Of a DNA stretch of 64,000 nt, positions 48,977 through 57,304 are shown one piece after another (positions within the stretch are counted from its first letter, which is position 1; each line of letters begins with the position of its first letter). The position numbers were made by a program, and so were the translations under genes. The notes beneath the pieces were generated by a model. It saw only the letters and a program-made list of their open reading frames with translations, had not been told where the DNA came from and made no database searches. Where the stretch lies: the NCBI GenBank assembly GCA_002500135.1, contig DLSM01000003.1:12100-76099 (forward strand). The letters run 5' to 3'. This DNA comes from Christensenella sp. UBA7862 (GTDB taxonomy: Bacteria > Bacillota > Clostridia > Christensenellales > UBA1242).

Positions 48977-50992
48977 TTACTTAAAAACTGCTGTGAAGTG
49001 GGTGCTATAGCGGACTTCAAAAGTGTCACCTGGGTGATAAATTTTGCTATCTGCGGAGCAATACCAATAAGAAAAGTTTTCTGCATTTGAACCAGTATAA
49101 GTTGGAATTGTGTAGGTGTCATAATCTGCATAAACATTGGACTTTTCCTCAAATTTAGCAATGTCTTCGGCGGTCTTTGGAACGGTGAAATTTTGGAAAG
49201 CGTCATTGTCCGTTGTCACCACCCAAAGGCTTTTGCCGTCTGCGTTTTTGACTGTTTCTTGTTTGTGCTTTTCGCTGTTGACGGTGTCACGAATAATCAT
49301 GTCACGCACCATTTCTCTTGTAAATTCTGCTGTTTCTGTAAGCCCGTTTTCATAAAGGAAACTGCACCATTCGACCAAGATTTGCCACTCTGCGCCACGA
49401 TAGCCTATCATATCTCTTGGAAGCATATCAAAGTATGTTTTCATTGTTTCTTCGGAATAAAGGTGAACTGGAATTGCGTCAATGCCAAAATTTGATAGGT
49501 CAATGCCGAAAATATTTGAGCATAGAAGTGTGAAAGTTTTGTCGGCAGCGTTTTCTGTGCCGTCTTTGTTAAGTCCAGCACCATAGACTGGGTTGCCGTC
49601 ATCATCACGCAAATAGTCTTCGGTCAAAACTTTTTGTCTTAATGGGTTGGCATAGACCAAGTTTTCGTCAAAACCATACATATTGTGAAAGCCCAGAGCG
49701 TCTGCTTCGTTGGTCAGATAGTCGCTTGCAAAGAAGTTCCACATTTGCCCCATAATTGGTTGGCAATATTGCACAATGTCGTGTGAAATTTTAATTTCTG
49801 TCACCGCTGTCCATGACCATGAAGGAGAACCATTGTTGTAATTCATCTTTACAATTTCACTGCCTACGTGGAAGTTGTCTGTGTCGGTCACTGCTGAATA
49901 TTGATAGGAATATTCGCCCGTTTCGGTGTTTAAGTTTCTTGTAAACATTGAATGTGGTGGGACAAATGTAAGTTCACCGCCGTCTGCAAATTTTACATAA
50001 ACCACTTCTTGTTCGCCATTTGTTGTGCTGTGTTTGTTGAGCCAATGGCAATAGCCTGTGTCAATTTTGCCAGTGTCGTGGTTGAAGCGATAAATTCTGT
50101 CGAAAAATGATATATCTTCAATATTTTTGTAACTGCCGTCTGCAAGCATAACTTTTGTGCCAAAGACAATGCAACCGCTTATTGGTTGTTCAGATTCTTG
50201 ACGTTTAATTGTGTCGCTCCATGTTGCGACCAATGTGTGGTCAGATTTATTTGTAAGTTCAGAGCCGTTTGATATGGTGTCTTCGCCAAGTTTCCAGCCG
50301 TCAAACTGCATATTTGCATAGCCGTCTGCAAAATAGTCTGTGTATTCCCTTTCGGTTTCACGAAGATAGACATATTTTGGGGTTGGAAGCCCGCCGTAGT
50401 TGCCACCTGACTTGGAGAAAGTTCTTTTGGCAAGAAGTTTTAGGTTGCTGACGGTGAGAGTTAGGTCTTGCGACTGCTCTGCGATGTTAAATTGAATAAC
50501 AACAAAATAGTCTTTTGACTCGGTGCAAGTGTAGGACAAAGTTCCCGATTGTTTTGTGTCATTTGGGGTGACTTTTTTCTCTGCTACAAGACCGTCTGAG
50601 CCTTCAGCGGATAGTGCTTGTCCGTAAATTTGGGCGGAAATTTCGTTGTTGCCCGAAAGGTTGTGTGAACTTTCATAGGAAAACTCCCATGTATAGACCC
50701 AGTCTTTTTCAAGCGGCAAAGAAAGATACACTTGCTCGGTGTAGGTGGTGTTTTTGCCAAAAGAAAATGTTGTTGCAAGGGCTTCTTCGTCAAAGGTGTT
50801 TGAAACTATGTGATTGTCAGATTTTGGCCCAAAATTCCACCTATCCACATCTGCAAAAAGTGCTTTTGAATAGTCCAGTGTAAGCGTAAAAGTTGTGCTT
50901 TGAGGTTCTGCCCCACCGCAGCCAGTGAGAGTGAGTGCCACACCCAAAACAAGGCAGCAAACCAGTGCCAAAAGTTTTACAAATTTTTTCAT
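48977..50992 (-). CDS. Lipoprotein with a beta-sandwich-like N-terminal region, one Flg_new repeat, a Hint autoprocessing domain and a conserved post-Hint C-terminal domain
   Basis: 671 aa. Lipobox LTG|C (Cys25) and AGGAGA RBS. Hint block A at SG|CIVFGTKVMLADGSYKNIEDI. The C-terminal ~400 aa is paralogous to the end of ORF 51064..57066. Confidence 0.8.
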   Translation of the reverse strand: MKKFVKLLALVCCLVLGVALTLTGCGGAEPQSTTFTLTLDYSKALFADVDRWNFGPKSDNHIVSNTFDEEALATTFSFGKNTTYTEQVYLSLPLEKDWVYTWEFSYESSHNLSGNNEISAQIYGQALSAEGSDGLVAEKKVTPNDTKQSGTLSYTCTESKDYFVVIQFNIAEQSQDLTLTVSNLKLLAKRTFSKSGGNYGGLPTPKYVYLRETEREYTDYFADGYANMQFDGWKLGEDTISNGSELTNKSDHTLVATWSDTIKRQESEQPISGCIVFGTKVMLADGSYKNIEDISFFDRIYRFNHDTGKIDTGYCHWLNKHSTTNGEQEVVYVKFADGGELTFVPPHSMFTRNLNTETGEYSYQYSAVTDTDNFHVGSEIVKMNYNNGSPSWSWTAVTEIKISHDIVQYCQPIMGQMWNFFASDYLTNEADALGFHNMYGFDENLVYANPLRQKVLTEDYLRDDDGNPVYGAGLNKDGTENAADKTFTLLCSNIFGIDLSNFGIDAIPVHLYSEETMKTYFDMLPRDMIGYRGAEWQILVEWCSFLYENGLTETAEFTREMVRDMIIRDTVNSEKHKQETVKNADGKSLWVVTTDNDAFQNFTVPKTAEDIAKFEEKSNVYADYDTYTIPTYTGSNAENFSYWYCSADSKIYHPGDTFEVRYSTHFTAVFK
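49709..50173 (-). other. Hint (Hedgehog/intein-type) domain of the lipoprotein, approximate
   Basis: Cys1 codon at 50173..50171. TFVPPHSMF (block B-like). C-terminal MWNFFASDYLTN without His-Asn plus nucleophile. Confidence 0.65.
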
Positions 50993-51063
50993 TTTTTCTC
51001 CTTTTTCTTGTTGTATTGTGCAATAAATTTAAATTATACACAGACACCCCATCTTCACAGGTC

Positions 51064-54000
51064 TTATGTGGAATAAACCGCAGTGAAGTGGGTGTTTGTG
51101 CGGACTTTATAGGTGTCGCCAGCGTAGTAAATCTTTCCGTCAGAAGAACTGAGCCACCCGACAAAGCCTTCTTCTTCAATGTTTGGCAAAATGTAATGAG
51201 TGTATTCCTCGAAGAAGAAGTCTTGTGGGTTGAAATGTTCGTTCATGACATCTTCTGACGTGGTTACAACATACATGAATTTGCCGTTTTCATTGGTTGG
51301 TGGCAAAACACGTTCGTTTTCGTTGTTTGCAACTTCGCTTAAAAGTATGTCAATCATGAAGTCCATGTTGAGCATATCGTTGTCAATCAAAATCTTCCAT
51401 TCTCTGCCACGGAAGCCAACAATATCCCTATCTGTCCAGCCCATGTTTTTAAGTTCTTTTTCTGTGAATAAGTGCTTGTCGTAAGTGCCGTTTAGAACTT
51501 TTTGTCTGATACTTGACGCATAGGTCAAATTCTTCTTAAAGCCATACATGTTTTGGAAAATGATTGTGTTTGGAACGGTGGTTAGAATATTCCCCGCAAA
51601 GCAGTTCCACATGCCAGAAGTTATGATTGAATATGCAGGGGTTTCTTCTTCGATGTAGCAAATTCCCGTTACAACTGCCTCGCCCCATGTGGCACAAGAT
51701 TCATAACTTGATTGACACGTGCAAGCAGAACACGTGGAGCAAGTTGTGTTTGCACAGTCGTTTGCGATATATTTTAGAACCCGAGTTCCAATATAGAATT
51801 TCGCTGGGTCGGTGACTGCGACATATTTGTTTTGGTCTAGGCTGAACACTGCATGGTCGCCAACAAATCTTATCGTTTCGCCGTCCGAGAATGTAACTTC
51901 CATAACCCGCTTTGACACAGTCGCTTTGCTTATCCAACTGGCGTAAGCCGTGTCAATTTGCCCAGTATCGTGGTTAAATCTGATAAGCCTATCCGAGTAA
52001 GTTATATCCTGAATCATTTTCCAGCCGTTTGCCGTAAGAATTGGTGTGTTGTATGCAAGACATGAAGGTGTTGAACCGCTGCCACTTCCAGAAATTGAAA
52101 TGTTTTGTGCTGGCATTGTGAACGATACTGAAGCACTTGAAGAACCAGACGCTGAAACATAACCCGAAATACTTGTTGTCTTGTTTGTATGACTTGTTGT
52201 ATTGGTAAATGTAAGCGAAACGCTTGTGCCGAAAGCAATGGTCGTTGTTCCAGTTGCCGTTCCGCTCCAATTTCCGTTTGAAGCACTTAGGGTCATTGTA
52301 TAACTCTTTGCCGAGAATGACGCATTCCAAGTAGCATTGCCCGCAGTTGTCCATGTAGCAGAACTTGTGCCGCTTGAAGAATAATTTGGAACACTTACGT
52401 CATAACCAGTAAACGACTTAATCGTGATATTTGGCAACGTTTGTCCATAAGTGACCGTTACACTTGTTGTGCCACCAGAGAAGTTTGTCTTTGCACTATT
52501 GCAAGTTGTACATGTGCCACTTACATTGCTACCTTTACTTCCCTTACAAGAACCGCATGTAACTTGACCAGACACTGTGCCTGTTGCGGAACATTTGCTA
52601 CAATTTGTCCAACCGTCTGTTCCTGAGCCACCACACCATGAACATGTTGACTCGGTGGTTTCATAATAGTAACCCTTACCTTTACAAGTTGAACAAGTAA
52701 CAGTTCCAAATCCGTTACAAAATTGACATTTATTTCCTGCACTGTTATCACCACTTCCACCGCAACCAGAACATGTTTCGGTAGTAGAGCAACTAACCTT
52801 TGTGCTTGATGAGGTTTTTCCAGAGCCATCACATCTTGAACATTCTTCATCCCAGCCTTTGTAGCCATTACATGTAGGACACTTTACCTGACCAGCAACT
52901 GTTCCATTGCCACCGCAATTTGAGCATGGAACCCATGTGTTCACCGTTCCCACTGCATTACACGTGCCGCAGCGTGGGACGGTGTAGTTGATTGTGAGGG
53001 TGTAGGTGTTGGCTGTCCACTTTGCATACAATGTTGCATTTTGATAAATATCTGTGCAAAGGTCAGACGCAAAGTTGGTTGAATCATAGCCAACATATCT
53101 TTCGCCATTTGACCCACCACAAGAGCCGTCACCATAGTAATGGACAAATGTGTGACCAGTTCTTGTTGGTTTTGTGATAGACGTTATTTCTGTTGTGCAA
53201 GCCTCGTTGGAGTAGAATTTGTTAATGCCATATTTGTAATAGAAAGCACTTGTTCCGCCCGAGCCGCCATTTGCATTAAGCGTTATCTTAATTGTATTTG
53301 GTGCCCAATACGCATACAACGTTTGACCGCTGGCGGTTGTCCATGCACGAGTGCCTGCGCCTGAGGCATTGTAATATTGTGTGCCACCACCGTTTGTGGC
53401 TGTGAAGTAACCACCAAAAGTGTAACCCGTTCTGCTTGGGACAGAAATGCTTGGGACAGTGGAGCCATAAGTTGCTGTTACACTGCCCGAGCCACCAGTG
53501 CCAGATTGTTTGTCAAGTGTTAGCGTATATTGATTTGGGTTCCAATGTGCATAGAGGGTGTATGTTCCACTGGTTGCAAGATTTGTGACACTTTGTTGGT
53601 CGCTATACACTTTTGCCCCGCTGGCACTTGTTGCCCAACCGTCAAAAGTGTAACCCGTTCTTGTAAAGCCGTTTGCAGTAAGTGCTTTGGCAGAGTCATA
53701 AGTGTGAGTACTGTTGGCTGTGGTTCCACTTCCACCATTTGCATTGTAAGTGACTGTGTAGGTGTTGGCTGTCCAGTTGGCTGTTGCAGTTATGTTTGCT
53801 CCACCAGAACAAGTTAAGATTTGGGCAGTGTTGGAAGTACTTGATGTTGCTCCAGTTGAGTCAAACACTTGACTGTATGCCACTTGCCACTTAACTGGTT
53901 TTTCCGCTGTTGCCGCTGTGCCTGTTAGATAATAGAAATTCGTTGAACTGTAACTGCCATTTGACCCGCAAGTCACTTTGTAAATATATCTTTGCCATGT

Positions 54001-57000
54001 TCCCGTTCCAGCTTGACTTGTAAGCCATGAACTACTTCCACCGCCATATGCATTTGAAGCCCATTGCAAATTGTATCCCACTGGAATCTTTGCAATAATG
54101 ACTGTTGTGAAAATTGCACTTGCATAGGAATTTGTGTAGTGAGTGTAACCGCCAAGCCCCGGACTTGCTTCGCCAGCGGTGGTGATTTCAAGATAATATC
54201 CAGTGTTGTTTGGTGCAGAACCTTGAACAACTGAGTGAGTTACTGTGCCGTTACCTTTGTTGTTATATATACTTACACTGTTTGTGCCGTTGAATGATGG
54301 GTTTGAATTAAGTGCTTTGCCAAAGGCGTTGTAACTTGCCCCCGAGTTGACTGTTCCGCCTGAGAAAGTCCAACCAGCGAATGTGTAACCCGTTTTGGTT
54401 GGGACACCAAATGCCATGGCTTCATCGGTGTAAATTGTGTTGGTTGCATTGCCAGATTTGCCGTTTAGTGTGCCACCATTTAGGTTTGTGGTAACTGTGT
54501 ATTGGTTTGCATTCCACTTTGCATACAATGTTGCGTTTTTGTAGATGTCGGTGCAGAGGTCAGAGGCAAAACCTGTGTTATAATAATTTTCTCCGTTACC
54601 GCCACCACAAGAGCCGTCACCGTAGTAGTTGCTGAATGTGTATCCTACTCTGCTTGGAAGCGTTATTGAGGTTATTTCAGTTGTGCAGGCTTCGTTGGAG
54701 TAGAATTTATTTGTTGCATATTTGTAATAGAATGTGTCCGTTCCGCCCGAGCCGCCGTTTTTGTTAAGGGTGATTTTGATTGTGTTTGCAGTCCAATAGG
54801 CGTATAGAGTTGTTGCTTTTGCAATATCCCAGCCACGGGTGCATGTGCCGGAGCCGTTAAAATATTGTGTTCCGCCACCGCTCGTTGCACTGTAATAGCC
54901 TTGGAAGGTGTAACCCGTTCTACTTGGAATAGAAATTGTGTCCATAGAGGAGCCGAATGTTGCTGTAAGACTATCCGTTCCGCCCGAGCCAGACTGTTTG
55001 TCAAAGGTGACGGTGTATTGGTTGGCTGTCCATTTTGCATATGCAGTTGTGCCACCGACCGTTGTCCATGTTATTTGCCCCACGCCAGAAGCGTTGTAAA
55101 GTTGCGTTCCCGAGCCGTTTTTGCCAGTGTAATAGCCCGCAAAGGTATAACCCGTTCTGACTGGTGGACTGATTGTTCCCAGTTTGGAGTTGTATGTTGC
55201 AGAGGTGGTGCTTGTGCCGTCAGACCCGCCTTGCTTGTCGAGGTTAATTGTATAACTATTGGCAGTCCACTTGGCATAAAGGGTCATGTTGCCCGCCGTT
55301 GTGAGTGGTCGTAAGCAAGCACCCGAAGCATTGTAATATTGTGTGCCGCCGCCGTTTGCTGCTGTGTAATATCCGCCAAAGGTGTAACCCGCCCTTGTTG
55401 GAATAGTTATATTTGCCGTGCGAGAATAAAACTTAACAGAAAGACTGCTTGTCCCGCCACTTCCACTTTGTTGGTCAAATGTATATGTGTAATTGTTTGG
55501 TGTCCATTGCCCATAAAGTTTGGTGTTCTCTGCCTTTATCCAGTTGCCACTTGCGTCTGTGTAGCCAGAAACACTTTTTACTGGCACACCGCCCGCAGTG
55601 TAAATCTGCACGCCGCCCACTGGTTGTGTGTAATATCCATTAAATGTGAACCCGTCATAACTCAGTGTCCCCACCCCACCAAGCGCACCATTGTAACTCA
55701 CACTTTTTGTGATGTTGGTGGCTTCAGCGATGGTGTAATCTCTGAAATAGAAATCACCTGTGCAATCTCTAACATACATAAATGCAGTTGCTTGTATAAC
55801 ATTTGATGAAGTAACCGCTGGGTATCCAGTCGCACATACTTGATGATAAAAAACGTCAGTCCAACCTTTGTTGCTATACCCAGAAACTCCTCTTGAGCCT
55901 ACAACCGAATACCATTGTCTTGTCCCAGAACTATCAGTGTAATAGCCATCAGTATAAAGCATTGCAGTTGGATTTGTCGAACCAGCAACATAATTTACAA
56001 CTTTGCTCTTAATTCCAACAATGTATTCCGTTCCTATTTTAATTCTATCCAAAATTGATTGATAAGGAGCGGTTGTTGTTGACATTGCACCCACTATCTT
56101 TACACAACTAAGCCCGTCTTGTGTCGCAATTGTTGTTCCGCCAAGTTGGTTCCAACTCTTAAGTTCCCCCTCGGTTGTAAGCCCGCCGCCATACAATATA
56201 TTCTTGTTTTCATACAATGTGACGGTGTAGTTGTTTGGCGTCCATTGAGCAGTAAGGGTGTGGTCACCGACAATCGTATTTCTAGTTTCTGGTGTGATAT
56301 ACCAACTTGTTGCGGTATATTTCCCTTTATACAAAGCAAGCCCGTCCCAAGTCTGCACAGTTCCAGCATCAGTATATACAGCAACTCCAATTTGAAACTT
56401 CTTTACAGAACTGTTTGTAATAGAAAATGTTTGTGTGTCATTTGCGCCGATGTTAGCCCAATAGCAATGATAATACTGATTCCATATCCAGCCTGATATT
56501 GTAATTTCAGTTCCATCTATGTAAGCACCATTTGAATCTAATATTCTAAGAAGAATTCTTCCAGCAACACTGCCTGGAGTAACTGTATATAAGTCCCCAG
56601 TTGTGTAATCATACATTTTGTTATTTATAATTCCAGGGCTACCCGAACCAGACGATGTAACTTTAAGCACATTTTTATTAACTATAAGTGAGTTTTTTGT
56701 TCCCAAAACTGCAGTGTAATCGTTGGCTGTTGCTGGAATAAACAAATTTGCCGACCAACCATCAAATGTATACCCCGCTCTTGTTGGGGTTGGGAGGACG
56801 GCGTAATATTCGCCGAGTTGCATTTTGAACCCCGCACAAGCGGAGCCGCCGTTGGAGTCCAAGGTGACGTAGTATTCTGGTCGGGTGTAATCTATTTTGA
56901 CCACACTTTGCACACGTTGTTGCCCTGCGCAAAACAAAATTCCCGCACAACAAAGAGCAATGACAATAAAGCAAAAAGACATGGAGATAAATTGCAATCT

Positions 57001-57066
57001 TCTCCATTTTTGACGTTTAAAGTATTCCTTTTTATACTTTTCTATTTGCTCTGTTTGGTTGTCCAT
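51064..57066 (-). CDS. Giant (~2000 aa) signal-anchored surface protein: Flg_new repeat arrays, beta-sandwich insert, CxxC array, Hint domain, post-Hint domain
   Basis: Single open frame. I prefer ATG 57066 (MDNQTEQ...) over the track TTG 57111. TM segment FISMSFCFIVIALCCAGILFCAG. At least 10 GYTF(x)G(W/Y)...LYA(K/Y)W repeats. Confidence 0.85.
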   Translation of the reverse strand: MDNQTEQIEKYKKEYFKRQKWRRLQFISMSFCFIVIALCCAGILFCAGQQRVQSVVKIDYTRPEYYVTLDSNGGSACAGFKMQLGEYYAVLPTPTRAGYTFDGWSANLFIPATANDYTAVLGTKNSLIVNKNVLKVTSSGSGSPGIINNKMYDYTTGDLYTVTPGSVAGRILLRILDSNGAYIDGTEITISGWIWNQYYHCYWANIGANDTQTFSITNSSVKKFQIGVAVYTDAGTVQTWDGLALYKGKYTATSWYITPETRNTIVGDHTLTAQWTPNNYTVTLYENKNILYGGGLTTEGELKSWNQLGGTTIATQDGLSCVKIVGAMSTTTAPYQSILDRIKIGTEYIVGIKSKVVNYVAGSTNPTAMLYTDGYYTDSSGTRQWYSVVGSRGVSGYSNKGWTDVFYHQVCATGYPAVTSSNVIQATAFMYVRDCTGDFYFRDYTIAEATNITKSVSYNGALGGVGTLSYDGFTFNGYYTQPVGGVQIYTAGGVPVKSVSGYTDASGNWIKAENTKLYGQWTPNNYTYTFDQQSGSGGTSSLSVKFYSRTANITIPTRAGYTFGGYYTAANGGGTQYYNASGACLRPLTTAGNMTLYAKWTANSYTINLDKQGGSDGTSTTSATYNSKLGTISPPVRTGYTFAGYYTGKNGSGTQLYNASGVGQITWTTVGGTTAYAKWTANQYTVTFDKQSGSGGTDSLTATFGSSMDTISIPSRTGYTFQGYYSATSGGGTQYFNGSGTCTRGWDIAKATTLYAYWTANTIKITLNKNGGSGGTDTFYYKYATNKFYSNEACTTEITSITLPSRVGYTFSNYYGDGSCGGGNGENYYNTGFASDLCTDIYKNATLYAKWNANQYTVTTNLNGGTLNGKSGNATNTIYTDEAMAFGVPTKTGYTFAGWTFSGGTVNSGASYNAFGKALNSNPSFNGTNSVSIYNNKGNGTVTHSVVQGSAPNNTGYYLEITTAGEASPGLGGYTHYTNSYASAIFTTVIIAKIPVGYNLQWASNAYGGGSSSWLTSQAGTGTWQRYIYKVTCGSNGSYSSTNFYYLTGTAATAEKPVKWQVAYSQVFDSTGATSSTSNTAQILTCSGGANITATANWTANTYTVTYNANGGSGTTANSTHTYDSAKALTANGFTRTGYTFDGWATSASGAKVYSDQQSVTNLATSGTYTLYAHWNPNQYTLTLDKQSGTGGSGSVTATYGSTVPSISVPSRTGYTFGGYFTATNGGGTQYYNASGAGTRAWTTASGQTLYAYWAPNTIKITLNANGGSGGTSAFYYKYGINKFYSNEACTTEITSITKPTRTGHTFVHYYGDGSCGGSNGERYVGYDSTNFASDLCTDIYQNATLYAKWTANTYTLTINYTVPRCGTCNAVGTVNTWVPCSNCGGNGTVAGQVKCPTCNGYKGWDEECSRCDGSGKTSSSTKVSCSTTETCSGCGGSGDNSAGNKCQFCNGFGTVTCSTCKGKGYYYETTESTCSWCGGSGTDGWTNCSKCSATGTVSGQVTCGSCKGSKGSNVSGTCTTCNSAKTNFSGGTTSVTVTYGQTLPNITIKSFTGYDVSVPNYSSSGTSSATWTTAGNATWNASFSAKSYTMTLSASNGNWSGTATGTTTIAFGTSVSLTFTNTTSHTNKTTSISGYVSASGSSSASVSFTMPAQNISISGSGSGSTPSCLAYNTPILTANGWKMIQDITYSDRLIRFNHDTGQIDTAYASWISKATVSKRVMEVTFSDGETIRFVGDHAVFSLDQNKYVAVTDPAKFYIGTRVLKYIANDCANTTCSTCSACTCQSSYESCATWGEAVVTGICYIEEETPAYSIITSGMWNCFAGNILTTVPNTIIFQNMYGFKKNLTYASSIRQKVLNGTYDKHLFTEKELKNMGWTDRDIVGFRGREWKILIDNDMLNMDFMIDILLSEVANNENERVLPPTNENGKFMYVVTTSEDVMNEHFNPQDFFFEEYTHYILPNIEEEGFVGWLSSSDGKIYYAGDTYKVRTNTHFTAVYST
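51577..52062 (-). other. Hint domain of the giant protein, approximate
   Basis: Cys1 codon at 52062..52060 (PS|CLAYNTPILTANGWKMIQDI). IRFVGDHAVF. C-terminal MWNCFAGNILTT without His-Asn. Confidence 0.65.
52501..52971 (-). other. Array of 11 CxxC motifs (6 are full DnaJ-type CxxCxGxG)
   Basis: In order: CGTC, CSNCGGNG, CPTC, CSRCDGSG, CSGCGGSG, CQFCNGFG, CSTCKGKG, CSWCGGSG, CSKC, CGSC, CTTC, within 157 aa. First and last Cys codons were frame-checked. Confidence 0.8.
52972..53775 (-). repeat. Second block of tandem Listeria-Bacteroides (Flg_new) repeat modules (3 modules)
   Basis: Modules delimited by W(T/N/A)(A/P)N(T/Q)Y... and ...LYA(H/Y/K)W. Confidence 0.75.
54370..55506 (-). repeat. First block of tandem Flg_new repeat modules (about 5 modules)
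   Basis: WTPNNYTYTFDQQSGSGG...LYAKW, TANSYTINLDKQGGSDG...AYAKW, and so on. Confidence 0.75.
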
Positions 57067-57261
57067 GGGTTTTCCAAATACGAGTTGTCGCAAATCGACT
57101 TTTAATAACAAAAAAAGACAAAAAACTTGATATGTAAGCAGTCTTTTATATAGTCTTTTGCAATAAATTATTTATGTTGCATAATGTGACAAAAGTTGTT
57201 ATATTTCGACATAAAACAACACTCTTATATTAAATAATTTATAATACACTAAAATTATATG

Positions 57262-57275
57262 AGTAGAATTCTACT
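57262..57275. promoter_or_regulatory. Operator-like perfect palindrome AGTAGAATTCTACT
   Basis: 14-bp perfect inverted repeat 36 nt upstream of the XRE gene. Confidence 0.55.
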
Positions 57276-57304
57276 TTGTCAAGTTTTTTTAGTAGAAATC
57301 TACT
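57276..57304 (+). promoter_or_regulatory. Candidate XRE promoter bracketed by the two operators
   Basis: TTGTCA-17 nt-TCTACT. The -10 lies inside operator 2. The predicted start falls at about ATG 57311, implying a leaderless mRNA (no SD present). Confidence 0.35.
57291..57304. promoter_or_regulatory. Operator-like palindrome AGTAGAAATCTACT
   Basis: Same 6-bp arms as 57262..57275, centres 29 bp apart. Ends 6 nt before the XRE ATG. Confidence 0.55.

What the first reader, a model, noticed from the sequence alone, without database searches (positions are those of the whole stretch)
48977..57066. Tandem pair of membrane-tethered surface proteins sharing a C-terminal Hint autoprocessing module plus an unrecognised post-Hint domain (Hedgehog-like 'Hog' architecture)
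**Seen.**
- The lipoprotein ORF (48977..50992) and the giant signal-anchored ORF (51064..57066) lie 71 nt apart on one strand. Their last ~400 and ~330 aa are paralogous.
- Each shared part opens with a Hint block-A signature right after a small residue: PISG|CIVFGTKVMLADGSYKNIEDI and STPS|CLAYNTPILTANGWKMIQDI.
- Each has a block-B-like xxH (ELTFVPPHSMF / ETIRFVGDHAVF).
- Each Hint part ends MWN(F/C)FA..(Y/I)LT, without the terminal His-Asn plus Cys/Ser/Thr needed for splicing.
- After Hint both carry a conserved region: NMYGFxxNLxYAxxxRQKVL ... DxxG(Y/F)RGxEWxIL ... VVTTxxD. Both finish with a half Flg_new repeat, GDT(F/Y)xVRxxTHFTAV.

**Established.** Hint modules lacking the C-terminal Asn do only the N-terminal N-to-S acyl shift; examples are Hedgehog autoprocessing domains and bacterial intein-like domains. 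In Hedgehog, the region after Hint recruits the attacking nucleophile.

**Inference.**
- Both proteins should self-cleave at the X|Cys bond outside the cell.
- That would either shed the Hint+CTD fragment or ligate the tethered passenger to an acceptor chosen by the post-Hint domain.
- I do not recognise the post-Hint domain.
Basis: partly seen in the sequence, partly recalled or inferred. Interest (0 to 1): 0.75.

Follow-up and report, generated by a model that had tools for sequence, protein, structure and literature searches.

The report
Hedgehog-like self-cleaving tail on surface proteins
Two neighbouring surface-protein genes of an uncultured gut Clostridia bacterium end in the same unannotated module, a Hedgehog/intein-type self-cleaving domain always followed by a domain of unknown fold; the module is widespread in gut Firmicutes and their prophages and probably cuts itself off the protein or passes the protein to an acceptor.

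Summary
Two minus-strand ORFs lie 71 nt apart: a 2000-aa signal-anchored Flg_new protein and a 671-aa lipoprotein. They share a C-terminal module (BLASTP E 3e-48).

Shown by tools:
- The first ~155 aa fold as a Hint domain (Foldseek E 4e-8).
- Cys1 is kept in 116/117 and the block-B His in 117/117 distant relatives.
- The splicing Asn and a C-extein are absent.
- The next 170-245 aa form a confidently modelled domain with no sequence or fold match. It was never found without the Hint.

The family is large (about 2,800 representatives at E<1e-10) and unannotated. It sits at the extreme C-terminus of many passenger types:
- LRR, Flg_new and TasA/SipW-type fibre-cassette proteins;
- type IV prepilins;
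- tail-fibre-position proteins of prophages that lack a signal peptide.

Self-cleavage at X|Cys1 through a thioester is inferred (about 0.8). Whether the thioester is hydrolysed or passed to an acceptor remains open; I lean slightly to transfer.

Two caveats: the "half Flg_new repeat" is not supported by sequence profiles, and the Thr of TxxH is not conserved. This is a new variant of a known kind: a bacterial and phage Hog-like architecture.

The parts
57254..57282 (-). Promoter-like site (TTGACA-17-TATAAT, 12/12) upstream of the giant ORF. It is the likely start of a two-gene transcript.
   Evidence: No terminator-like site lies between the two ORFs.
51064..57066 (-). Giant ORF of 2000 aa: N-terminal signal anchor, many Flg_new repeats, a Cys-rich CXXC region, then the Hint and post-Hint module.
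   Evidence: Flg_new E 3e-47, 7 stretches. Homologue P0013 starts at the equivalent ATG.
56926..56997 (-). Predicted transmembrane signal-anchor helix of the giant protein (about aa 24-47), preceded by a Lys/Arg-rich cytoplasmic N-terminus.
   Evidence: Read directly from the translation.
52060..52065 (-). Predicted scissile junction Ser1668|Cys1669 of the giant protein (Cys1 of the Hint).
   Evidence: Cys1 is conserved in 116/117 relatives.
51577..52062 (-). Hint domain of the giant protein (aa 1669-1830). The block-B His1738 codon is at 51853-51855. A Cys-rich insertion lies at about aa 1772-1797.
   Evidence: weak intein/Hint HMM hits that start exactly at Cys1669. Family-level fold evidence.
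51067..51576 (-). Post-Hint domain of the giant protein (aa 1831-2000): about 80 aa of helices followed by a beta part of about 70 aa. This is the compact version.
   Evidence: AlphaFold model ma953262a3752, pLDDT 90. No significant match in the PDB or BFVD or in PDB sequences.
48977..50992 (-). Lipoprotein ORF of 671 aa: signal peptide with lipobox, a 248-aa passenger without any family match, then the Hint and post-Hint module.
   Evidence: no Pfam hit for the passenger.
50918..50992 (-). Lipoprotein signal peptide with lipobox L22-T23-G24-C25.
   Evidence: Read directly from the translation. Conserved in P0002-P0006.
50171..50176 (-). Predicted scissile junction Gly273|Cys274 of the lipoprotein.
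49712..50173 (-). Hint domain of the lipoprotein (aa 274-427). The block-B His347 codon is at 49952-49954.
   Evidence: AlphaFold model m9f22740df149. Foldseek against the PDB: BIL2 E 4e-8, hedgehog 1at0 E 3e-7 with TM 0.78, C. thermocellum BIL TM 0.82. Profile search of the PDB covers the whole Hint.
48980..49711 (-). Post-Hint domain of the lipoprotein (aa 428-671). Same domain as in the giant protein, with an insertion of about 70 aa modelled at lower confidence.

Best explanation
Both proteins end in one composite module that self-processes in the Hedgehog ('Hog') manner.

**Shown.**
- The first ~155 residues are a Hint domain. It keeps the two residues needed for an N-to-S acyl shift (Cys1 and the block-B His).
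- It has no terminal Asn and no C-extein, so it cannot splice.
- It is always followed, up to the protein's last residue, by a conserved domain of unknown fold. That domain is never found on its own.

**Inferred.**
- After the passenger and module fold, Cys1 attacks the preceding peptide bond (Gly273|Cys274 in the lipoprotein; Ser1668|Cys1669 in the giant protein).
- This turns the link between passenger and module into a thioester, and the link is then broken.

**More speculative (my lean).**
- The post-Hint domain plays the part of Hedgehog's adduct-recognition region. It binds a surface component and presents a nucleophile, an amine or a hydroxyl, that resolves the thioester.
- The most economical candidate is a cell-wall-associated polymer of this bacterial lineage.
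- The passenger's new C-terminus then becomes covalently joined to that acceptor, and Hint plus post-Hint leaves.
- For the two window proteins, whose N-termini are already held in the membrane, this would fix the far end of the protein to the wall or to a bound target.
- For the related prophage tail-fibre-position proteins it would fix the fibre to the host surface.

**Probabilities.** Cleavage at X|Cys1 is about 0.8. Transfer rather than hydrolysis, given cleavage, is about 0.5-0.55.
For: **Hint fold and catalytic residues.**
- Fold: Foldseek E 4e-8 to 1e-6, TM 0.74-0.84 to BIL2, hedgehog HhC, C. thermocellum BIL and inteins.
- A profile-to-PDB hit spans the whole Hint domain.
- Seven of eight members hit Pfam Hint PF01079 independently, though below threshold.
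- Cys1 is kept in 116/117 and His in 117/117 relatives. They are among only about six invariant columns out of 335, in representatives <=50% identical to one another.
- The residue at -1 is small: G 38, T 25, S 18.
- There is no Asn at the terminal position (D/E/Y/S/V) and no nucleophile after it.

**Obligate coupling of the two domains.**
- The module ends 0-4 aa from the C-terminus in 106/117 relatives.
- A post-Hint-only profile finds only fragments and remnants.
- Relatives with other tails keep the N.YGF..N..Y element right after block G.

**Behaviour like a sorting or processing tag.**
- One module is joined to LRR_5, DUF285, Flg_new, Ig/FN3-like, TasA/SipW-signal and type IV prepilin passengers.
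- In 47/62 gut-Bacilli loci it ends the last gene of a cassette: DUF11-like subunit, SPase I, DUF5305, then the large subunit.
- In other bacterial TasA/AbpX-like loci, partner subunits are reported to carry SLH or LPXTG wall anchors (bioRxiv 10.64898/2026.01.04.697558).

**Precedents for transfer.**
- Hedgehog's post-Hint region recruits the nucleophile (PMC2362128).
- The closest solved relative, Tetrahymena BIL2, passes its N-extein to a Lys amine (PMC8616854).

**Boundary.**
- A natural module-less homologue (P0207) stops exactly at the -1 residue in an otherwise intact cassette. This supports the junction as the end of the mature protein.
Against: - No cleavage or adduct has been observed; everything after the fold and the conserved residues is inference.
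- The Thr of TxxH is not conserved.
- Pfam and NCBIfam Hint and intein hits are all below their curated cut-offs.
- The post-Hint domain shows no homology to the Hedgehog sterol-recognition region and no evident catalytic or ligand-binding signature.
- The module occurs on prophage proteins without a signal peptide. It must therefore be able to act without the producer's envelope. This weakens 'anchoring to one's own wall' as the general role and fits a self-removing assembly domain equally well.
- The module-less variant P0207 shows that the passenger can do without it.
Confidence: 0.42

Rival explanations
1. Self-removing C-terminal pro-domain. The Hint makes the thioester and water resolves it. 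Hint plus post-Hint is needed only beforehand, for folding, assembly or holding the passenger in an immature state, and is then discarded. The functional analogy is the auto-cleaving C-terminal intramolecular chaperone domains (Peptidase_S74) of phage tail fibres and spikes.
For: - The Hint evidence is the same as for the best explanation.
- The window's clade of the module sits at the tail-fibre position of siphovirus-like prophages. The order is tape measure, tail proteins, an 811/833-aa LRR_5 protein ending in the module, holin, integrase. This protein has no signal peptide.
- C-terminal auto-cleaved assembly domains are well known at that position (established knowledge).
- Passengers are mostly beta-rich repeat or fibre proteins.
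- The module-less homologue P0207 ends exactly at the junction, like a mature product.
- The post-Hint domain has no obvious pocket or catalytic residues.
Against: - The passengers are too varied (monomeric LRR solenoids, pilins, a small lipoprotein domain, Flg_new arrays) to share one folding need.
- Simple N-terminal cleavage by other bacterial Hint domains needs no obligate 170-aa partner.
- There is no sequence or fold similarity to S74 chaperone domains.
Confidence: 0.33
2. Non-cleaving distal binding module. Hint plus post-Hint stays attached as a folded tip domain that binds a ligand. The conserved Cys and His serve structure or metal binding rather than catalysis.
For: - The C-terminal position would be the distal tip in N-anchored proteins, pilins and phage fibres.
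- The beta part weakly resembles the InlB B-repeat and MucBP adhesin domains.
- Zn binding near the catalytic His is described for BIL2 (PMC8616854).
- The TxxH Thr is lost.
Against: - Cys at exactly position 1 and the block-B His are invariant across a family whose other columns vary freely. This is the pattern of active Hint domains.
- A small residue at -1 and flexible Gly/Ser/Thr linkers precede it.
- The boundary of the module-less variant coincides with the scissile bond.
Confidence: 0.12
3. Polymorphic-toxin-type delivery. The Hint releases a C-terminal toxin or effector domain, as PT-HINT does.
For: Hint domains precede C-terminal toxin domains in polymorphic toxin systems (PMC3482391, listed). 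The proteins here are large, secreted and repeat-rich.
Against: - The post-Hint domain is conserved, not polymorphic, across >100 relatives.
- The terminal Asn needed to free a C-terminal domain from the Hint is absent.
- There is no PT-HINT (PF07591) hit.
- No small immunity-like gene follows. In the window the next gene is asd, and downstream genes vary in the other loci.
Confidence: 0.03
4. Genuine or degenerate intein (a mobile element) inserted in surface-protein genes.
For: Weak intein HMM hits: TIGR01445 and Intein_splicing.
Against: - There is no C-extein, no His-Asn, no +1 nucleophile and no homing endonuclease.
- The module is always terminal and is always coupled to the same extra domain.
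Confidence: 0.01

Closest known systems
Hedgehog / Hog proteins (Hint + SRR or ARR), Pfam PF01079
   Same: - A secreted or surface passenger is followed by a Hint with Cys1 and the block-B His but no splicing Asn. An obligate extra region then runs to the C-terminus.
- PF01079 is the Pfam family hit by most members, though below threshold.
- Hedgehog HhC (1at0) matches the model with TM 0.78.
- A small residue, often Gly, precedes Cys1.
   Different: - The hosts are bacteria and phages.
- The post-Hint domain is 170-245 aa of soluble helices plus a beta part. It is not a short hydrophobic sterol-recognition region, and no homology to one was detected.
- PF01079 alignments stop at profile positions 90-138 of 213, inside the Hint part.
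- The adduct, if any, is unknown.
Tetrahymena BUBL BIL2 (PDB 6TMM/6Y75)
   Same: - It is the best match in the PDB by sequence profile (E 0.003, full-length Hint) and by fold (E 4e-8).
- It is a Hint that transfers its N-extein to an amine nucleophile without ATP (PMC8616854).
   Different: BIL2 has the C-terminal Asn and a C-extein (ubl5) and acts in a eukaryotic cytoplasm. It has no post-Hint domain.
Bacterial intein-like (BIL) domains, A-type (e.g. C. thermocellum BIL, 2LWY) and B-type (Pfam Hint_2)
   Same: These are Hint domains in variable secreted or surface proteins of bacteria. 2LWY is a weak sequence hit and a good fold match with TM 0.82.
   Different: - A-type BILs end in His-Asn and are internal. 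An example is the tandem array in P0130 with '..VHNK|GGCF'.
- Hint_2 gives no hit to either window protein or to any of the eight A1 sequences. A single more distant relative, P0158, hits it at E 0.16.
- None of them is described with this post-Hint domain (my knowledge, and no paper found).
Sortase/LPXTG and SLH wall anchoring (functional analogue)
   Same: These are C-terminal tags on diverse Gram-positive surface proteins. Sortase chemistry also goes through a Cys thioester that is resolved by a wall amine. In TasA/AbpX-like loci, partner subunits carry LPXTG or SLH, whereas the gut-Bacilli cassette has a large subunit ending in this module.
   Different: No homology. In the module the nucleophilic Cys lies in the substrate protein itself, so the reaction would be single-turnover. 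Anchoring is a hypothesis, not a finding.
Peptidase_S74 intramolecular chaperone domains of phage tail fibres/spikes (functional analogue)
   Same: These are C-terminal, self-cleaving modules at the end of phage fibre proteins. The position matches that of the module in L095-L099.
   Different: They have an unrelated fold and chemistry (a Ser-Lys dyad). No similarity was detected.

Membership tests
Hint superfamily (Hedgehog/intein fold) | Hint beta-fold | tested here: met
   The AlphaFold model has pLDDT mostly 85-97 over the Hint part. Foldseek against the PDB gives 61 hits at E<=1e-3. All 50 listed hits are Hint, intein or BIL chains, with TM 0.74-0.84 to the mini-inteins, HhC and BILs among them.
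Hint superfamily (Hedgehog/intein fold) | Nucleophile (Cys/Ser) as first residue (block A) | tested here: met
   Cys in 116/117 relatives (the other is a gap), within C[LIF]xxGT.
Hint superfamily (Hedgehog/intein fold) | Block B TxxH | tested here: inconclusive
   His is kept in 117/117, but the Thr position is Val/Ile/Ala in most relatives.
Hint superfamily (Hedgehog/intein fold) | Score above the curated cut-offs of Pfam/NCBIfam Hint or intein models | tested here: not met
   The window proteins and the eight A1 sequences all score below cut-off. Examples: PF01079 at 14.9-21.7 bits against 29.7; TIGR01445 at 16-18.5 against 24.5. One distant relative, P0158, just reaches the PF05203 cut-off at 32.1 bits.
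Inteins (protein splicing) | C-terminal (His-)Asn followed by a Cys/Ser/Thr C-extein | tested here: not met
   The Asn-equivalent column holds D 72, E 15, Y 8, S 4, V 3 and others (Glu and Val in the window proteins). The next residue is Gly/Pro/Ala. Nothing resembles a C-extein.
Hog domain (Hedgehog-type autoprocessing) | A Hint without splicing residues, followed by a C-terminal adduct/sterol-recognition region at the protein's end (definition in PMC2362128) | tested here: met
   The architecture is met. The module is terminal in 106/117 relatives, and the post-Hint domain is never found alone.
Hog domain (Hedgehog-type autoprocessing) | Homology of the post-Hint region to the SRR/ARR | tested here: not met
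   PF01079 alignments cover only the Hint part of that model. The post-Hint profile and model have no significant match anywhere.
Hog domain (Hedgehog-type autoprocessing) | Transfer of the passenger to an adduct (cholesterol in Hedgehog) | not testable with these tools
   This needs biochemistry or mass spectrometry.
B-type BIL / Pfam Hint_2 and PT-HINT | Match to PF13403 or PF07591; for PT-HINT also a variable toxin tail plus an immunity gene | tested here: not met
   Neither model hits the window proteins or family members at E<=1. The tail is conserved and no immunity-like neighbour is present.
Flg_new / InlB B-repeat (for the last ~70 aa) | Sequence-profile match to the repeat | tested here: not met
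   Pfam finds nothing at E<=5. hhalign against the giant protein's own repeats gives probability 0.1%. Only weak fold-level hits are seen: PDB InlB E 1.3; BFVD E 0.012-0.05.

The most novel reading that the evidence does not exclude
The module is a bacterial and phage counterpart of Hedgehog autoprocessing. It would be a single-turnover, enzyme-free ligation device in which the post-Hint domain selects an acceptor on a cell surface. The Hint thioester would then join the passenger's C-terminus covalently to that acceptor. This would amount to sortase-independent wall anchoring of surface proteins and TasA-like fibres, and possibly covalent 'harpoon' attachment of adhesins, pilus tips and phage tail fibres to their targets.
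Probability: 0.35. Interest if true: 0.9.

Novelty: new variant of a known kind. Interest (0 to 1): 0.68.

Why it matters
- Hint domains with an obligate downstream partner domain are known essentially from Hedgehog-type proteins of eukaryotes. Here the same logic appears as a large, unannotated family in uncultured gut and rumen Firmicutes and their prophages. There are about 2,800 cluster representatives at E<1e-10.
- The module is attached to adhesin-like repeats, TasA-type fibre components, pilins and phage fibres.
- If the module only cuts itself off, it defines a new maturation step for many gut-bacterial surface proteins and gives a clean rule for their mature C-termini.
- If it transfers the passenger, it would be a new way to anchor or attach proteins covalently without sortase or ATP. 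That would interest work on cell-envelope biology, phage adsorption, the evolutionary origin of Hedgehog processing and protein-ligation tools.
- Either way, the post-Hint domain deserves a family entry.

Tried and rejected
**Searches for relatives.**
- The word-index homologue search with the lipoprotein module found only 9 relatives and missed even the neighbouring paralogue. The exhaustive profile search was needed.
- The post-Hint-only profile returned only short fragments or remnants through the word index. For example, P0173 begins inside block G. I rejected the idea of stand-alone post-Hint proteins.
- The 'stand-alone' module proteins P0007 and P0018 are not that. The P0007 ORF stays open 155 codons upstream, and it matches the C-terminal part of 811-aa prophage proteins.

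**Family and structure libraries.**
- Pfam, NCBIfam and PHROGs give nothing for the post-Hint domain or for the lipoprotein passenger.
- PDB sequence searches give only noise for the post-Hint part: butyrophilin and epoxide hydrolase at E>0.2.
- Foldseek of the post-Hint model against the PDB and BFVD gives no hit at E<=1e-3.

**Phage collections.**
- The INPHARED phage collection has no tblastn hit.
- An IMG/VR scan with the Bacilli-type alignment found none. The scan with the Clostridia-type alignment found 5 full modules.
- A genome scan with alignment A2 failed because it had no conserved stretch.

**Other checks.**
- Rfam finds nothing in 48.4-58.1 kb.
- The window holds no LPXTG-type ORF and no further Hint module.
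- The literature searches found no paper on this module.
- The passenger-swap search aimed to find homologous passengers carrying another anchor. It gave only the module-less P0207.
- I considered an endolysin role for the post-Hint domain, because the prophages show a holin but no lysin next to it. I rejected it: the fold is not lysozyme- or amidase-like, and no catalytic-type conservation appears in the helical part.

Full report
**1. What is in the window**

- Both ORFs lie on the minus strand. The upstream gene runs from 57066 to 51064 and encodes 2000 aa. The downstream gene runs from 50992 to 48977 and encodes 671 aa.
- A 71-nt spacer separates them. It carries a Shine-Dalgarno sequence and no terminator-like site.
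- A perfect sigma-70 consensus promoter lies at 57282..57254 on the minus strand. The pair is probably one transcription unit.
- The flanking genes are housekeeping genes: rpsT, holA and comEC upstream; asd, dapA, dapB, an aspartokinase gene and plsX downstream.
- The giant protein has a basic N-terminus and one hydrophobic helix, which I read as a signal anchor. It then has many Flg_new repeats (Pfam E 3e-47) and a Cys-rich CXXC region.
- The small protein has a classical lipobox (L-T-G-C25). Its 248-aa passenger has no family match.
- The window comes from an uncultured gut Clostridia lineage. Near-identical loci with the same tandem pair and the same neighbours occur in three Clostridia MAGs.

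**2. The shared C-terminal module is real and begins with a Hint domain**

- The two C-terminal parts align with BLASTP E 3e-48, starting at Cys274 and Cys1669.
- Single-sequence Pfam and NCBIfam hits to Hint and intein models all fall below the curated cut-offs. They are consistent, however, and they start at the Cys.
- A profile of eight modules hits solved Hint domains over their full length. The best hit is BIL2 of the Tetrahymena BUBL1 locus (E 0.003), followed by inteins.
- In the AlphaFold model of the lipoprotein module, pLDDT is mostly 85-97 over the Hint part.
- Foldseek against the PDB returned 61 hits at E<=1e-3. All 50 listed hits are Hint, intein or BIL chains. They include BIL2 (E 4e-8), hedgehog HhC 1at0 (E 3e-7, TM 0.78) and the C. 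thermocellum BIL (TM 0.82).

**3. Conservation test**

- The word-index search found only nine relatives.
- The exhaustive profile search found 4,546 cluster representatives at E<=1e-3, 2,842 at E<=1e-10 and 153 at E<=1e-30.
- I analysed 117 full-length modules. These are representatives at <=50% mutual identity.
  - Cys1 is present in 116 (the other has a gap) and the block-B His in all 117.
  - Only about six of 335 columns are this conserved (Cys1, K21, D30, G40, Y46, H76).
  - The residue before Cys1 is small (G 38, T 25, S 18) and follows Gly/Ser/Thr-rich linkers.
  - The column equivalent to the intein's terminal Asn holds D/E/Y/S/V (Glu and Val in the window proteins). The penultimate His is Thr/Ser.
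  - The Thr of TxxH is mostly Val.
- In 106 of 117 relatives the module ends within four residues of the C-terminus.
- Splicing and Asn-driven C-terminal cleavage are therefore excluded. The residues for the N-to-S acyl shift are under strong constraint.

**4. The post-Hint domain**

- Conserved motifs begin directly after block G: N-x-Y-G-F-x-x-N-x-x-W/Y, then PYYLYxGLRxxE, WMVTTSDD, EGSxYxLP, FxGWYN, YxPGD and HFxAxY.
- A 42-sequence alignment gave a confident model of the giant protein's version: pLDDT 90, six short helices over the first ~80 residues, then a beta part.
- Nothing significant matches it.
  - PDB sequences: noise only.
  - PDB folds: best E 0.31.
  - BFVD: best E 0.012, covering only the beta part, with B-repeat/MucBP-like beta-grasp proteins.
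- The domain was never found without a Hint. The short hits are fragments or remnants.
- More distant relatives with other tails or tandem Hints still keep the N.YGF..N..Y element. The two domains behave as one unit.
- The lipoprotein version carries an insertion of about 70 aa.

**5. Where the module is used**

Passengers include BspA-type LRR_5, DUF285, Flg_new and Ig/FN3-like domains. The N-termini fall into five kinds:
- lipoprotein signals;
- signal anchors;
- TasA/SipW-type signals ('IGYAxF/YN', 'AYF(T/S)D');
- type IV prepilin signals (GFTLxE; N_methyl, TIGR02532);
- no signal at all.

Three contexts stand out.

(a) *Fibre cassettes in gut and rumen Bacilli.*
- Eighty loci come from uncultured gut/rumen 'Bacilli', 'Tenericutes' or 'Erysipelotrichaceae' MAGs.
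- Where enough upstream DNA is held, 47 of 62 loci show the same four-gene order. It is a ~185-aa DUF11-like subunit, a ~378-aa protein with a C-terminal Peptidase_S26 domain, a ~345-aa DUF5305 protein, and a ~790-aa protein ending in the module.
- SPase I plus DUF5305 marks TasA/AbpX/Tafi-type donor-strand fibre loci (PMC11821415; bioRxiv 10.64898/2026.01.04.697558).
- The same preprint reports that bacterial loci of this kind often encode partner subunits with SLH or LPXTG wall anchors.
- A smaller variant of the cassette has a TasA-like Peptidase_M73 protein, SipW and a Hint protein (L002 and L007).

(b) *A natural module-less homologue.*
- P0207 sits in an intact cassette and stops exactly at the residue before the expected Cys1.

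(c) *Prophages.*
- Five IMG/VR contigs carry the full module, 32-35% identical to the lipoprotein's.
- It forms the end of an 811/833-aa LRR_5 protein without a signal peptide.
- That gene lies after the tape-measure and tail genes and before a holin and an integrase.
- P0007 and P0011 are of this type.
- The module can therefore operate in proteins made and assembled in the cytoplasm.

**6. Mechanism**

- *Shown:* a Hint fold; an invariant Cys1 and His; no splicing residues; an obligate, terminal partner domain of unknown fold.
- *Inferred with good confidence (about 0.8):* an N-to-S acyl shift at X|Cys1 and breakage of the bond between passenger and module.
- *Open:* how the thioester is resolved.

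For transfer to an acceptor:
- The only well-understood Hint with an obligate downstream region is Hedgehog's. There that region supplies the nucleophile (PMC2362128).
- The closest solved relative, BIL2, ligates its N-extein to a Lys amine (PMC8616854).
- The module behaves like a C-terminal sorting tag on unrelated passengers. It occupies the end of the large subunit in fibre cassettes, and elsewhere such loci encode subunits with wall anchors.

For simple hydrolysis:
- The phage tail-fibre context favours it, because self-removing C-terminal assembly domains are common there.
- The module-less variant and the lack of any obvious pocket signature point the same way.

One acceptor idea covers both the bacterial and the phage cases. 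The acceptor would be a wall-associated polymer of the lineage, bound by the post-Hint domain. Host surface proteins would use it for attachment and phage fibres for adsorption. This is speculation. I give transfer about 0.42 overall, hydrolysis about 0.33, a non-cleaving binding module about 0.12, and toxin-delivery or true-intein readings a few percent.

**7. Comparison with known families**

- The module belongs to the Hint superfamily by fold and by catalytic residues. Current Pfam and NCBIfam thresholds do not capture it.
- It is not an intein: it has no Asn, no C-extein and no endonuclease.
- It is not an A-type BIL, which would have a His-Asn. An example is P0130.
- It is not Hint_2 or PT-HINT by HMM.
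- It matches the Hog definition in architecture only. The post-Hint domain is unrelated to the sterol-recognition region.
- I found no paper and no database name for it. All carriers are uncultured organisms, which probably explains this.

**8. Verdict**

- The finding is not ordinary. It uncovers a large, undescribed family with a Hedgehog-like domain logic in gut Firmicutes and their prophages.
- It is a new variant of a known kind. The chemistry after thioester formation remains to be determined by experiment.

Noticed in passing
window 52486-52983 (minus strand; giant protein aa ~1362-1527): About a dozen closely spaced CXXC(X)G motifs give weak hits to the DnaJ central zinc-finger domain (PF00684 E 0.003; TIGR02349). 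This is unusual in the predicted extracellular part of a surface protein. A second Cys-rich insertion (7 Cys, aa ~1772-1797) sits inside the giant protein's Hint domain.
   Followed up: no
L008-L087 (e.g. L008 5180-10361; L014 5192-10358): Uncultured gut/rumen Bacilli carry a conserved four-gene cassette. Its order is a DUF11-like ~185-aa protein, a ~378-aa protein with a C-terminal signal peptidase S26 domain, a DUF5305 protein, and a ~790-aa protein with a TasA-type signal, an FN3-like repeat and the Hint module. It resembles TasA/AbpX/Tafi fibre loci. The order is kept in 47/62 loci.
   Followed up: partly
L095 4447-6948; L098 4513-6948 (IMG/VR viral contigs); L001 666-1739: Siphovirus-like prophages encode an LRR_5 (BspA-type) protein that ends in the module, at the tail-fibre position. 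It is followed by phrog_9428, a holin and an integrase. No recognisable endolysin gene lies between the holin and the integrase.
   Followed up: partly
L093 2934-4526 (protein P0207): This is a natural variant of the ~790-aa cassette protein without the whole module. It ends exactly at the residue that precedes Cys1 in its homologues and is followed 15 nt later by a convergent lgt gene.
   Followed up: yes
window 50001-56000: G+C is 42-46% across the two genes against 36-40% in the rest of the window. GC skew changes sign there as well. Either the Gly/Thr/Ser-rich repeat composition or foreign origin could explain this.
   Followed up: no
window 49712-50173 (lipoprotein Hint) and relatives P0002-P0007: The lipoprotein/prophage clade has two extra Cys in the Hint domain (profile columns 47 and 131: 'GYCHW' and 'QYCQP'). 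Each is present in 9 of the 117 sequences, though co-occurrence in the same sequences was not tabulated. This could be a clade-specific disulfide or a second catalytic Cys. Hedgehog has a conserved second Cys (C143).
   Followed up: no
proteins P0036, P0040, P0041, P0050, P0052, P0076, P0097 (L090 464-2131): These proteins have a type IV prepilin N-terminus (GFTLxE). For P0036 this is confirmed by N_methyl/TIGR02532 hits; the others are read from sequence. They carry the Hint plus post-Hint module at their C-terminus. P0036 is encoded away from any pilus operon, between a dUTPase gene and rpmB.
   Followed up: partly
protein P0130 (1285 aa), P0158 (1052 aa): These are distant relatives with arrays of Hint domains. 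P0130 has seven tandem A-type BIL-like units joined by '..LVHNK|GGCF..'. P0158 has two tandem Hints of the present type, each followed by the short N.lY..de.mKY element.
   Followed up: no
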